Shown one piece after another: positions 12,001-15,000 of a DNA stretch of 64,000 bases; the stretch's first letter is position 1, and every line of letters begins with the position of its first letter. The DNA lies in NCBI GenBank assembly GCA_963777715.1, contig CAVZRN010000010.1:22211-86210 (forward strand), in the 5' to 3' direction. The stretch comes from an uncultured Gammaproteobacteria bacterium. GTDB lineage: Bacteria; Pseudomonadota; Gammaproteobacteria; JAURND01. The position numbers are program-made.

Positions 12001-15000
12001 TATGACTATGAAATGTCCTATTTGTCTAGGAGCAGAACTGATTCATGATACCCGTGACGTGTCTTACACATACAAGGGCGAAACCAGCATTATTTCTGCG
12101 GTATCAGGTGATTTTTGTCCGGCCTGTGCGGAATCCATTTTAAATGCAGTGGAATCCGAACGCGTCATGCGTGAAATGCGTGCTTTCTCAAAACAAGTCA
12201 ATGCAGCTATTGTTGATCCAAGTTTTATCATTAACGTGCGCAAAAAGTTGGCACTGGATCAGCGTGAGGCTGCCGAGATATTTGGCGGCGGTGTTAACGC
12301 CTTTTCACGTTATGAGAGTGGTAAGGTTAAACCACCTTTAGCATTAATAAAATTGCTCAAAGTGCTTGATCGTCATCCTGACCTGTTAAATGAGGTTAGA
12401 GCGGCTTAGATTTATTACCAGGGGTGGACAGAAAAAGGTTTTTTAACTGCGCCACCACATCCAATGCCAACAAGCCACGTTCGCCGCCTGCCTGCGCCGC
12501 CTGGTCAGCTGCACGCGCGTGTAGCCACACACCCAACTCCGCCGCGTGTTGCAGTTCGCAGCCTTGCGCCAGTAAGCCGCCGATCACTCCTGCCAACACA
12601 TCGCCCATGCCGCCGCTCGCCATGCCGGGGTTGCCAGCAGTACATACGCGCGGTTGCGATTCGCCCTGCACGATGCTGCCCGCGCCCTTTAGCACCACAA
12701 CCCCGCCATAGTGTTGTTGTAGCTGGCTTGCCGCAGCATAGCGATCGGCTTGCACTGCCTGTGTGGTGGTGTTTAACAAGCGCGCCGCTTCGCCAGGATG
12801 GGGGGTTAATATGAAACTCCCCCTGGAATCATCCCGCGCCAATAAATTCAATGCATCGGCGTCAATCACGGTTGGTAAGTGTGTGGCTAACGCCGCCTGG
12901 TATAATCCCCGCGCCCAATCGTCTTGCCCCAACCCTATGCCTAACACGATTACCGTGGCGCGTGCGAGTAGGGGTTGCAATGCCTCTATAGTGCTTATGC
13001 CATGCGCCATAATCTCTGGCCGCGCGGCGAGTAGTGCGCCCACGTGTTCCGGTCGCGTCGCCACGCTCACTAAGCCCGCCCCTATGCGCAATGCCGCTGT
13101 CGCCGCTAATTGCACCGCGCCACCCATGCCGTAATTGCCGCCAATCACTAGCACATGACCAAAATCACCCTTGTGGGCATCGCGACGGCGTGGCGGCAGG
13201 GATGGCGCGCCGATTAGGGTAGTGGCTGCCGGAGTGACCTGTTGTAATAAGGTGGGGGATATCCCCAATGTGTCACAATCTACCGCCCCACAATAGGCCG
13301 GCGCCTGACCAGTGACTAAGCCACGCTTGACGCCGATAAATGTTAAAGTGCGCTCGGCTTGTACTGCAACGCCATTTGCCCCCATCCTAACCTTCCCCCG
13401 CAAGGGGGGGAAGGAACTGGTGACACAGCCAGTATCCGCGTTAACACCCGACGGAATATCCAGCGCTAATACCGGACACGACGCAGCGTTGATGACGACA
13501 ATGGCATCGCGATAAGGCGGTTTCACCTCGGCGTTTAAACCAATACCCAGTAACGCATCCACGATCAAATCAGCATCTATCGGTTCATTGGGATTAAATG
13601 GCCGGATGTCCACACCCGCAGCACGGCAGGCGGCCAGCGCAGTGGCGGCAGGTTCAGGCAATGCGGTTACTTCGCCAACGTGGCGCACGCTGACGCTCAA
13701 CCCGTGCGCCTTGACCTGGGTCGCCGTCACATAGCCATCGCCACCGTTATTGCCGCATCCGCAAAAAATGATTATGCGAGTCGCGTGGGGCCAATGTTGG
13801 CGTAAATAGTGACATGCGGCATCACCCGCGCGCTGCATTAATACCATGCTGGATTGGTGTGGTTGCAATGCGGATGTTTCCAGCGCACGAATTTGCGCTA
13901 CGCTGTAGAGTGAAATTGAGAGCGGAATCGGATTATCCACAGCTATTCGCCATTGTGTTGAGGTTAGTGAGAGTTTAGTATATGTGATAGTTTATGCAAC
14001 AATGTCATTCTAATTGGGGTCGTAGCTCAGTTGGTAGAGCGCCGCGTTCGCAATGCGGAGGTCGGGAGTTCGATCCTCCCCGGCTCCACCAGTAAAATCC
14101 AGTAAAATAAGGGATTACAACCAATGGATGACACTAAAACCGAACGTAAATCTCCCTCCTCCAGCCAGCAATCACCCAAGGATAAAAAAATCCGTCAAGG
14201 CAATGATAGTGATGAAAAATCTAAACGGGCTACTATTATTTTTGGAGAACCCCCGATAATCAACCCTGGCGTATCAAGCGCTAATCCACTTCTAAAAGAT
14301 AGTACGCAACAAGACAATAAACAAACATCCGATACACAACCTTCTAACTTCAGTCACATCTTGCAAGAAGCCTATGTAGCGCAAGCAGACACAGTGCGAC
14401 TACTGGTATCAGGGGATGTGATTCCGTTACAAGCGATGGCTAATTTAGTCATTCGTGATAAACGCGAGCAACCGCTGCCAGAAGAAAAACCAAGAGATGA
14501 AAAAGTTGAAAGAAAATCCAGCATAGAAAGTAAGAAAACTAAAACTTCGCGCGTGTATCATGACCAACCATTAAAGGACGACAAGCCTATCGCCATTGAA
14601 AACCTGTTTGCGCCGCAGGGTGATAAACCGCCCGTTAGCAAGGTTTTGATCGAGGGACCTGCCGGGTCGGGGAAATCCACACTTGGTCAACGTCTGGTTT
14701 ATGTATGTTCAACCAATCCGGCAATTTTTAATAAGAAAAAAATCGATTATGTACTGTGGCTACCATTACGTACGTGGTTGGCGGAATATATTCCGCCTGA
14801 TGCTACGTTAGCGGAGGATATTGCTGCCTTCATCTATGAACAATATCTGAAAGGTCATATCCCAGAAAAAAGATATTGTAGCGTGTTTGGCGGCGTTGAA
14901 ATCCTTATTTAGTCCTCAAAGCAGTGCATCCACGTTATTCATCATTGATGGTTTCGATGAAGCAGCGCATCACTTGAAACAAAAAGATTCAACGAAGGGT

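What the first reader, a model, noticed from the sequence alone, without database searches (positions are those of the whole stretch)
13378..13418. Palindromic repeat element inserted in-frame inside the nnr coding sequence
Seen: the 40-bp segment matches the intergenic REP-like copy at 1381-1420 in 38 of 40 positions. It lies within the intact 514-aa nnr ORF, where it encodes about SSFPPLRGKVRMG. E. coli YjeF has about 15 fewer residues between the DTG and T.TF motifs. Established analogy: Rickettsia palindromic elements insert in-frame into protein genes. Inference: a similar selfish element is active in this lineage and tolerated in a surface loop.
Basis: partly seen in the sequence, partly recalled or inferred. 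Interest (0 to 1): 0.7.

Follow-up and report, generated by a model that had tools for sequence, protein, structure and literature searches.

The report
Palindromic repeat inserted in-frame in nnr
A 45-base copy of a small GC-rich hairpin repeat sits in frame inside the NAD(P)HX repair gene nnr and adds a floppy 15-residue loop; this kind of event is already known, but the repeat family turns out to be spread across many bacterial phyla.

Summary
Window 13379-13418 (minus strand) matches 1381-1420 at 38 of 40 bases, where chance predicts no such match. It lies inside an intact 514-aa bifunctional Nnr gene. All 25 closest orthologues and Thermotoga TM0922 lack exactly 15 residues at this point. 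The insert is therefore 45 nt (13374-13418, S175-N189) and is specific to this lineage in the available data. AlphaFold gives a confident Nnr fold in which the insert is the only long internal low-confidence coil.

The repeat is not confined to this pair. The window holds four copies, three of them intergenic, including one inverted doublet. A pattern scan found the same hairpin-plus-G-rich-tail unit in at least eight phyla. In other genomes it lies in frame inside genuine housekeeping genes such as class II RNR, PDH E2, MutS, HtrA and thiolase.

What moves the element is unknown. I found no RAYT, no target-site duplication and no GTAG or CGTC tag. Intragenic REPs are already described, so this is a new member of a known kind. 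The cross-phylum conservation and the mirror covariation between stem arm and tail are unexplained and moderately interesting.

The parts
12396..13940 (-). nnr (bifunctional NAD(P)H-hydrate epimerase/dehydratase), intact 514-aa ORF with a GTG start
   Evidence: The ORF is listed. Pfam finds YjeF_N at residues 33-207 and Carb_kinase at 263-496. It matches TM0922 at 8e-55. The AF2 model has pLDDT 87.5 and TM 0.83/0.86 to 2AX3.
13374..13418 (-). 45-nt in-frame insertion encoding S175-N189 (SSFPPLRGKVRMGAN). The boundaries could shift by a few nt in either direction.
   Evidence: The 15-aa gap is present in all 25 orthologues and in TM0922. Residues 177-188 have pLDDT below 50 and form a coil.
13379..13418 (-). 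40-nt repeat unit, the best-scoring copy in the window. It differs from the cross-genome AT-type consensus at one base.
   Evidence: The covariance model scores it at 61 bits, E 2.5e-12.
13391..13414 (.). Hairpin core. The arms are 13391-13401 and 13404-13414, with one C.C mismatch next to the loop.
   Evidence: A 9-bp stem is predicted on both strands, as RNA and as DNA. Stem covariation across the family is shown.
13379..13390 (-). G-rich tail TTAGGATGGGGG, on the sense strand of nnr. It is a mirror image of the 3' stem arm.
1381..1420 (+). Intergenic copy A, 38 of 40 identical to the nnr copy, about 80 nt upstream of sucC
   Evidence: 58.6 bits.
1322..1364 (-). Intergenic copy C, inverted relative to A and with a diverged tail. 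Together with A it forms a REPIN-like doublet (1322-1420) that starts at the base after the stop codon of the NfeD-like ORF.
   Evidence: 38.3 bits. The doublet folds as one long hairpin, z -4.3 as RNA and -5.1 as DNA.
55233..55272 (+). Intergenic copy D, of the GC-richer sub-type, lying between convergent genes. It is not part of the neighbouring IS607-like element.
   Evidence: 51.3 bits. Homology between the two IS copies ends about 160 nt before it.
3611..3847 (.). 237-bp palindromic MITE-like element whose termini resemble the tail motif (GGTTAGGGAGGGGG). Its relationship to the family is uncertain.
   Evidence: The covariance-model match is only weak, E about 2.

Best explanation
The segment is a copy of a small non-autonomous REP/MITE-like palindromic DNA element. 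The unit is about 40 nt: a 9-11 bp GC-rich hairpin followed by a 12-nt G-rich tail.

This copy entered the nnr coding sequence and added 45 nt, which is 15 codons. The gene survived for three reasons. The length is a multiple of three. The element has no stop codon in four of its six reading frames. The site encodes a turn between two structural elements of the epimerase (YjeF_N) domain, so the extra residues form a disordered surface loop.

Shown here: the insertion, its membership of a repeat family, the preserved reading frame, the loop-like prediction, and the same behaviour of the family in other genomes.

Inferred: the copy arrived by transposition or templated copying from another genomic copy through an enzyme supplied in trans, and it is neutral or nearly so for Nnr. 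The mechanism most likely works by analogy with REP/REPIN elements, where an HUH tyrosine transposase acts on single-stranded hairpins. No such enzyme was identified.
For: - Repeat identity is far beyond chance.
- An exhaustive covariance-model search finds four copies in 64 kb, one coding and three intergenic. They include an inverted doublet placed directly after a stop codon, which is typical REP/REPIN placement.
- The 15-aa insertion is absent from 25 orthologues and from TM0922.
- All positions invariant across the family are retained in the window protein.
- The AF2 model has pLDDT 87.5 and pTM 0.88. The insert is the only long internal stretch below 50, and the fold matches 2AX3 at TM 0.83/0.86.
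- Four of the unit's six frames are open.
- The same unit occurs in many genomes and in three co-varying sub-types.
- The same family lies in frame in Pfam-confirmed class II RNR, PDH E2, MutS, HtrA, thiolase, PEP-mutase-like, SelA and ECH proteins.
- In PDH E2, 20 of 120 close homologues carry the element at one site. A 94%-identical relative lacks it.
- Intragenic REPs and RPEs are established precedents (PMC3733652, PMC10969869).
Against: - No mobilising enzyme was found. Neither the window nor 1.1 Mb of flanking loci contains a RAYT-like motif, and the IS607 copies in the window are unlinked.
- No target-site duplication is visible at nnr.
- In the filled-versus-empty E2 comparison the element replaces 21 nt instead of simply inserting.
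- The unit lacks the terminal GTAG or CGTC tag of the described REP super-families.
- Sequence conservation across phyla is unusual for a purely selfish, vertically inherited REP family. It hints at a functional or structural constraint.
- The copy number in the source genome could not be measured.
- Nnr activity was not tested. The insert begins only four residues after the invariant Gly171 of the D-x-G motif.
Confidence: 0.6

Rival explanations
1. The unit is a host-selected structural nucleic-acid element rather than a parasite. The hairpin plus the mirror-repeat G-rich tail would fold into an intramolecular purine-motif triplex or a G-quadruplex in ssDNA or RNA. It would be kept for a cis function such as transcript stabilisation, termination or pausing, a recombination or replication signal, or a docking site for another mobile element. 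The nnr copy would then be an occasional by-product, or even a regulatory feature of the nnr mRNA.
For: - The unit is nearly identical in at least eight phyla.
- The stem shows compensatory changes: 14 cells changed on both sides, and 0 of 500 shuffles reach this.
- The tail mirrors the 3' arm and co-varies with it in three sub-types. G pairs with G in 61 cases and A with A or T in 20, against 4 exceptions at one position.
- The GC-rich form reads G3+ N1 G3 N3 G3 N1 G3+, a canonical G4 pattern visible directly in the sequence.
- On asymmetric units the loop is strand-biased (TT).
- Copies sit immediately 3' of ORFs.
Against: - No Rfam family matches.
- The covariation reduces to two or three independent sub-family changes, so descent alone could produce it.
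- Single-unit folding energies are not better than shuffles (z -0.1 to -2.1).
- Intragenic copies occur in both orientations and in unrelated genes, which argues against a gene-specific role.
- Triplex or G4 formation cannot be tested with the tools available here.
Confidence: 0.2
2. The copy was not transposed. It was written into nnr by recombination or repair, for example gene conversion, or template switching to another genomic copy during repair of a break or at a stalled fork. No dedicated transposase would be involved.
For: - There is no target-site duplication at nnr.
- In PDH E2 the 48-nt palindrome replaces 21 nt of loop-coding DNA between short GCG repeats.
- The E2 element is distributed patchily among close relatives at one identical codon position, which is compatible with allele exchange.
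- No transposase is linked.
- The window shows other local rearrangements, including an 85-nt nnr fragment copied 2.6 kb away.
Against: - The nnr insertion is a clean +45 nt with nothing deleted.
- HUH/Y1-type transposition also leaves no duplication, so the absence of a duplication does not discriminate.
- Doublets with constant architecture in several genomes resemble transposed units.
Confidence: 0.15
3. The insertion is an artefact: a mis-assembly of a metagenome-assembled contig at a repeat, or a chance or convergent Pro/Gly-rich loop unrelated to the repeat.
For: - The source appears to be a MAG contig of 218,699 nt.
- Neighbouring genes show frame problems. sucC is split into two frames and hemA is truncated.
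- No independent assembly of this nnr was recovered.
Against: - A 40-nt repeat cannot create a seamless, frame-preserving 45-nt addition with unique flanks on both sides.
- A 38-of-40 match has zero chance expectation.
- The same phenomenon is seen in many independent assemblies and genes.
Confidence: 0.03

Closest known systems
Rickettsia palindromic elements (RPE-1 to RPE-10)
   Same: These are palindromic repeats inserted in frame into unrelated housekeeping genes. They add peptide segments that are compatible with the protein fold, and copies are found both in genes and between them (PMC10969869; PMC3733652).
   Different: RPEs are about 100-150 bp, restricted to Rickettsia, and described as ending in CGTC. 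The unit here is 40-48 nt, has no CGTC tag, sits in a gammaproteobacterium and is shared by many phyla. Sequence homology to RPEs was not tested.
REP / REPIN elements mobilised by RAYT transposases, including the intragenic REPs of Di Nocera et al. 2013
   Same: Both are 20-40 nt GC-rich imperfect palindromes. They occur as singletons and inverted doublets, usually just 3' of ORFs and sometimes inside genes such as uvrA and recB. Here the family is seen in a UvrA-like ORF (Walker-type motifs recognised by eye; no Pfam hit at the 1e-5 cut-off used), MutS and others.
   Different: There is no terminal GTAG or CGTC tag and no RAYT was found. REP families are normally species- or genus-specific, whereas this unit is almost unchanged across phyla. 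It also carries a mirror-repeat G-rich tail not described for REPs.
Bacterial MITEs (Correia/NEMIS, ERIC, QMITE1/2 of Coxiella burnetii)
   Same: These are non-autonomous inverted-repeat elements that can overlap or fuse with ORFs. QMITEs occur in a related intracellular gammaproteobacterial group.
   Different: MITEs are 70-400 bp with terminal inverted repeats and target-site duplications. QMITE1/2 are 150-400 bp with 2-11 nt direct repeats and were reported to have no orthologues elsewhere. No duplication is seen here, and the unit is far smaller.

Membership tests
REP/REPIN (RAYT-associated) | Short (20-40 nt) imperfect palindrome forming a stem-loop | tested here: met
   A 9-11 bp stem is predicted. 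Across 28 family members 97.9% of cells are paired, with compensatory changes at 3 pairs.
REP/REPIN (RAYT-associated) | Many dispersed copies, mostly extragenic, often as inverted doublets | tested here: inconclusive
   The window holds four copies in 64 kb, three of them extragenic, with one inverted doublet at 1322-1420. Doublets also occur in L002, L020 and L028. The genome-wide copy number of the source organism could not be obtained.
REP/REPIN (RAYT-associated) | Conserved GTAG (or CGTC) tetranucleotide at one end of the unit (Di Nocera 2013) | tested here: not met
   The window type begins (C)AGTTCC and ends GGGGG(C). After the stem it has TTAG, and only some GC-rich variants have an internal GTAG. 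None of the six element-derived nucleotide and peptide strings searched for occurs as such in the paper's supplements; the only hits were unrelated RKRGR stretches in transposase sequences.
REP/REPIN (RAYT-associated) | A cognate RAYT (HUH/Y1 transposase) gene flanked by the repeats | tested here: inconclusive
   No NPVRAG-type RAYT motif occurs in six-frame translations of the window plus 141 loci, 1.1 Mb in total. RAYTs are single-copy, so a whole-genome search is needed, and that was not possible.
Rickettsia palindromic elements (RPE) | In-frame insertion into functional genes at positions compatible with the fold | tested here: met
   for nnr. for other genes carrying the same family.
Rickettsia palindromic elements (RPE) | Element of about 100-150 bp belonging to RPE-1..10 of Rickettsia | tested here: not met
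   The unit is 40-48 nt. The host is a gammaproteobacterium whose best named Nnr relative is 'Candidatus Paracoxiella' at 52%. Sequence comparison with RPE consensus sequences was not done.
MITE | Terminal inverted repeats plus a target-site duplication flanking the insert | tested here: not met
   The arms are inverted repeats. No direct repeat flanks the nnr insert or the E2 insert, where 21 nt are replaced.
Nnr / YjeF (host gene) | YjeF_N epimerase domain plus Carb_kinase dehydratase domain with the conserved residues intact | tested here: met
   Pfam hits both domains. Invariant columns are shared with 25 orthologues. The fold matches 2AX3 at TM 0.83/0.86. Enzymatic activity was not tested.

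The most novel reading that the evidence does not exclude
The nnr insert belongs to a so far undescribed, pan-bacterial family of about 40-48-nt elements. Each is a GC hairpin with a mirror-repeat G-rich tail that could form an intramolecular triplex or G-quadruplex.

The family's sequence is held almost constant across at least eight phyla. It recurrently occupies surface loops of core enzymes, sometimes at the same codon in many species. That would imply either a conserved, unidentified mobilising or targeting machinery, or a structure-driven insertion mechanism shared across bacteria.
Probability: 0.25. Interest if true: 0.7.

Novelty: new member of a known kind. Interest (0 to 1): 0.4.

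Why it matters
For this locus the result is a clean, datable-in-principle example of a repeat element remodelling an enzyme loop without destroying the gene. It occurs outside Rickettsia and in a metabolite-repair enzyme.

More broadly, the same small unit appears in frame in RNR, PDH E2, MutS, HtrA, thiolase and other core proteins of unrelated bacteria. This supports the idea that palindromic repeats are a general source of loop insertions in proteins. It also has a practical consequence: such Pro/Gly/Arg-rich loops in alignments and annotations should be recognised as repeat-derived.

If the cross-phylum conservation and the mirror-symmetric tail reflect a real structure or a shared machinery, the family would be a tractable system for studying how hairpin elements move.

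Tried and rejected
- **Rfam.** I searched the whole window at gathering thresholds, the doublet region at E up to 10, and 17 loci carrying the element. Nothing relevant turned up. The hits were generic hairpin-like miRNA models and sub-threshold CRISPR-DR and BjrC80 matches.
- **Literature searches by sequence or peptide string.** Searching for the element's DNA sequence found nothing. Searching for the encoded peptides returned only unrelated papers (hits to 'PhageG...' words).
- **Supplements of the REP survey.** The element-derived strings do not occur there; the only hits were unrelated RKRGR stretches in transposase sequences.
- **Link to the IS607-like elements in the window.** Rejected, because homology between the two IS copies stops about 160 nt before copy D.
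- **RAYT motif scan of all fetched DNA.** Negative, but not decisive.
- **Fetching the source contig through the Nnr protein.** This failed. A neighbouring protein yielded only a 7.4-kb Logan contig with no further copies.
- **Viral contigs.** Only 23 hits in 2.9 million contigs, so phages are not an obvious vector.
- **Long-ORF criterion for intragenic copies.** It is unreliable in GC-rich genomes, so only Pfam-confirmed cases were counted.
- **Homology with Coxiella QMITE1/2.** Considered and rejected on size and structure.
- **Similarity of the 5' end (AGTTCC + CCCCGC hairpin) to type I-E CRISPR repeats.** I noted this from memory, but it is not supported by any array structure or significant Rfam score.
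Full report
**1. The observation**

The plus-strand segment 13379-13418 is the reverse complement of AGTTCCTTCCCCCCCTTGCGGGGGAAGGTTAGGATGGGGG. The plus-strand segment 1381-1420 reads AGTTCCTTCCCCCGCTTGCGGGGAAAGGTTAGGATGGGGG. The two agree at 38 of 40 positions. A search allowing three mismatches returns only these two sites, and no match occurred in 100 dinucleotide-preserving shuffles. The sequences on either side of the 40-mer are unrelated, so the repeat unit is about 40 nt long.

**2. The host gene**

The segment lies in ORF 12396-13940 on the minus strand (514 aa, GTG start).
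- Pfam finds YjeF_N at residues 33-207 (6e-42) and Carb_kinase at residues 263-496 (4e-59).
- The best solved relative is the bifunctional Nnr TM0922 of Thermotoga maritima, at 8e-55.
- In the gene's frame the repeat encodes SSFPPLRGKVRMG.

**3. A lineage-specific 45-nt insertion**

A protein search returned the identical protein from a 218,699-nt NCBI/ENA contig. All other relatives are at most 65-67% identical. In the alignment of the 25 best hits, every sequence has one residue where the window protein has TSSFPPLRGKVRMGAN. This gives a clean 15-column gap. TM0922 has the same gap, which falls around Leu172-Thr174 of that protein.

Codon-level comparison with the two closest orthologues gives GTC ACC | 45 nt | GGC GTT in the window, against GTG TGC GGT/GGG in the orthologues. 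Nothing appears to have been deleted. The insert is therefore 13374-13418, made up of the 40-nt unit plus CAAAT. The boundaries are uncertain by a few bases, and no direct repeat flanks the insert.

**4. Effect on the protein**

AlphaFold2, run with alignment A1, gives mean pLDDT 87.5 and pTM 0.88.
- Residues 177-188, inside the insert, are the only long internal stretch with pLDDT below 50. The only other internal dip is three residues, 368-370. DSSP assigns residues 177-188 no secondary structure.
- The model superposes on 2AX3 with TM 0.83/0.86.
- All columns that are invariant among the orthologues are conserved in the window protein.

This supports an exposed, disordered loop in the epimerase domain. 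Two caveats apply. The alignment contains no information for the insert, so low confidence there is partly expected. The insert also begins only four residues after the invariant Gly171 of the D-x-G motif. Activity is untested.

**5. The repeat family in the window**

Mismatch-tolerant scans, and a covariance model (R1) run with filters off, find four copies:
- the nnr copy (61 bits);
- 1381-1420 (58.6 bits);
- 55233-55272 (51.3 bits, a GC-richer sub-type);
- 1322-1364 (38.3 bits, inverted, with a diverged tail).

The copies at 1322-1364 and 1381-1420 form an inverted doublet that begins at the base after the stop codon of the NfeD-like ORF 815-1321. The doublet folds as a single long hairpin, with z -4.3 as RNA and -5.1 as DNA. 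Single units form a 9-bp stem. One of the four copies is coding.

A 237-bp palindromic element at 3611-3847 has termini resembling the tail motif, but it matches the model only weakly.

**6. The family outside the window**

The pattern was CCCCCNCNNGCGGGGN{4,6}TAGGNNGGGGG, which fixes 22 bases. Judging by the record titles, the loci come from:
- Alpha-, Beta-, Gamma- and 'Delta'-proteobacteria;
- Chloroflexota/Dehalococcoidia;
- Dormibacterota;
- Bacteroidota;
- Poribacteria;
- Armatimonadota;
- Acidobacteriota;
- one cultured Pasteurellaceae isolate.

The positions that the pattern left free are also conserved. The whole 40-mer of the window type, with only the loop-region positions free, recurs in an uncultured gammaproteobacterium (L028) and in two Cardiobacteriaceae MAGs (L070, L116).

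Three sub-types exist:
- ccTTCCCCCGC..GCGGGGGAAGG-TTA-GGAWGGGGG, the window type, found in loci of mean GC 0.56;
- ccCTCCCCCGC..GCGGGGGAGGG-(T)TA-GGGWGGGGG, found in loci of mean GC 0.63;
- cCTCCCCCCGC..GCGGGGGGAGG-YTA-GGWGGGGGG.

The stem shows compensatory changes. Across 28 sequences 97.9% of cells are paired. Fourteen cells are changed on both sides, and 0 of 500 shuffles reach that number. About a third of the GC-type copies carry a further 5' arm complementary to the tail, which makes a 47-48-nt perfect palindrome. None of the 13 distinct window-type copies has this arm. Only 23 of 2.9 million viral contigs contain the pattern.

**7. The family enters genes elsewhere too**

Among the fetched loci, ORFs that read through the element and extend at least 100 codons on both sides were translated and scanned against Pfam. 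The confirmed cases are listed below.

| Locus | Protein | Position of the element |
|---|---|---|
| L085 (L099 has it at the same site) | class II ribonucleotide reductase | inside the barrel domain |
| L016 (L106 has it at the same site) | PDH E2 | inside the catalytic domain |
| L023 | MutS | just before domain V |
| L024 | HtrA-type protease | before the protease domain |
| L075 (a Rickettsiales MAG) | thiolase | inside the N-terminal domain |
| L018 | PEP-mutase/isocitrate-lyase-like enzyme | inside the domain |
| L036 | SelA | between the N-terminal region and the SelA domain |
| L078 | enoyl-CoA-hydratase-like protein | in the C-terminal half of the ORF, downstream of the Pfam-matched ECH region |

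A UvrA-like ORF (L104) also carries the element, but it gave no Pfam hit at the cut-off used. Both orientations of the element occur in genes. Among the window-type copies, nnr is the only clear intragenic case.

**8. One filled-versus-empty comparison**

Of the 120 closest homologues of the L016 E2 protein, 20 carry the element-encoded PLPNPPPQAGEGRVG-like loop at the same position. The other 100 carry K[DNS]K[DE]G[NDQ] or a variant of that short loop. The two states are interleaved by sequence identity.

The nearest relative (P0122, 94% identical) lacks the element. At the DNA level a 48-nt palindrome replaces 21 nt, a net gain of 27 nt, with no target-site duplication. This pattern could reflect recurrent site-specific insertion, exchange of alleles, or repeated loss. 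I could not separate these.

**9. Mechanism**

- **Shown:** a copy of a dispersed repeat family was added to nnr without breaking the frame. The unit is stop-free in four of six frames. Together with the one-in-three chance of a frame-preserving length, roughly one random insertion in five would therefore be readable. Such copies persist where the protein tolerates a loop.
- **Inferred:** the copy was made by an enzyme acting in trans on hairpin DNA, as for REP/REPIN and RAYT.
- **Against a simple assignment to REP/REPIN:**
  - no RAYT-like motif occurs in 1.1 Mb of flanks;
  - the IS607-type elements of the window are not linked;
  - the unit has no terminal GTAG or CGTC tag;
  - there is no target-site duplication.
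- Templated repair or gene conversion remains a live alternative.

**10. An unexplained feature**

The tail is a mirror image of the 3' stem arm, and it changes together with that arm in the three sub-types. At one position G pairs with G in 61 cases and A with A or T in 20, with 4 exceptions. At the neighbouring position A pairs with A or T in 73 cases and G with G in 6, also with few exceptions.

Mirror symmetry is not generated by copying and is not what a dimeric protein recognises. It matches the pairing code of an intramolecular purine-motif triplex. In the GC-rich form the tail also fits a canonical G-quadruplex pattern. This is my inference from the sequence. It rests on only two or three independent sub-family changes, and no structure was tested.

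**11. Comparison with what is known**

In-frame palindromic insertions are classic for Rickettsia RPEs (PMC10969869). Di Nocera et al. 2013 reported GTAG- and CGTC-tagged REPs inside genes of many species, notably repair genes. They argued that such inserts sit in linkers or loops (PMC3733652). Coxiella QMITEs overlap ORFs but are much larger and have direct repeats (PMC5896051).

The present unit works like these elements but is not a member of the RPE, GTAG/CGTC-REP or MITE families on the features tested. No Rfam family corresponds to it. No paper in the searchable library contains its sequence.

**12. Verdict**

The corrections are that the family is pan-bacterial rather than lineage-specific, and that mobility and neutrality are inferred. 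As a phenomenon it is a new member of a known kind. The cross-phylum conservation, the mirror-symmetric tail and the recurrent occupation of the same enzyme loops are worth a dedicated survey.

Noticed in passing
window 1500-2676 and 133-456: sucC is split into two overlapping frames: ATP-grasp_2 at 1500-2330 and Ligase_CoA at 2137-2676. hemA is only a 107-aa fragment. This points either to pseudogenisation in a host-associated genome or to assembly frameshifts.
   Followed up: partly
window 7713-11616 and 12712-12796: A segmental duplication of about 2 kb (7713-9590 versus 9968-11616) contains two paralogous orphan ORFs with no Pfam hit (7877-9478 and 10161-11504). An 85-nt, 95%-identical copy of the nnr 3' region lies at 10050-10134.
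   Followed up: partly
window 3611-3847: A 237-bp palindromic MITE-like element lies just downstream of sucD. It has 36-nt terminal inverted repeats ending in GGTTAGGGAGGGGG (the tail motif of the hairpin family) and a nested 33-nt palindrome at 3696-3779.
   Followed up: partly
window 11709-12409: An mqsR/mqsA toxin-antitoxin pair. The mqsA stop region overlaps the 3' end of nnr convergently by 14 nt.
   Followed up: partly
window 14887-20061: A 1724-aa protein with many HEAT repeats (108/111-nt tandem DNA repeats), ankyrin repeats and an OTU protease domain. This eukaryote-like, effector-type protein suggests an intracellular or host-associated gammaproteobacterium.
   Followed up: partly
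window 53175-55072 and 28416-29800: An intact IS607-type element (MerR-HTH serine recombinase TnpA plus TnpB) and a degraded second copy with a split tnpB. Neither is linked to the hairpin repeat.
   Followed up: yes
loci L016, L106, L143, L144; proteins P0121-P0240: In PDH E2 of Xanthobacteraceae/Bradyrhizobiaceae-like genomes, 20 of 120 close homologues carry the element at one identical codon position. There it replaces a K-D-K-D-G-N loop (48 nt for 21 nt, no duplication). P0208 has a second insertion nested inside the element-encoded loop.
   Followed up: partly
loci L001-L118 (e.g. L003, L020, L046, L075): The G-rich tail of the element is a mirror image of the 3' stem arm and co-varies with it in three sub-types. 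The GC-rich form reads GGGGGAGGGTTAGGGAGGGGG, which has G-quadruplex or triplex potential.
   Followed up: partly
loci L002, L020, L028, L103, L109: In an uncultured gammaproteobacterium (MFD09286.bin.1.170) and in the genomes behind L103 and L109 (organisms not checked), the unit forms the inner part of a larger inverted-repeat element of about 170 bp. That element has constant 99-nt spacing and outer ends of the form ...GGGGGCAGYYTCTAGWGGC. In L020 it flanks mutL on both sides. L028 also has a group II intron D1-D4 hit about 4.4 kb from the doublet.
   Followed up: no
window 14016-14088: A tRNA gene (65.9 bits) lies 76 nt upstream of the nnr start, on the opposite strand.
   Followed up: no
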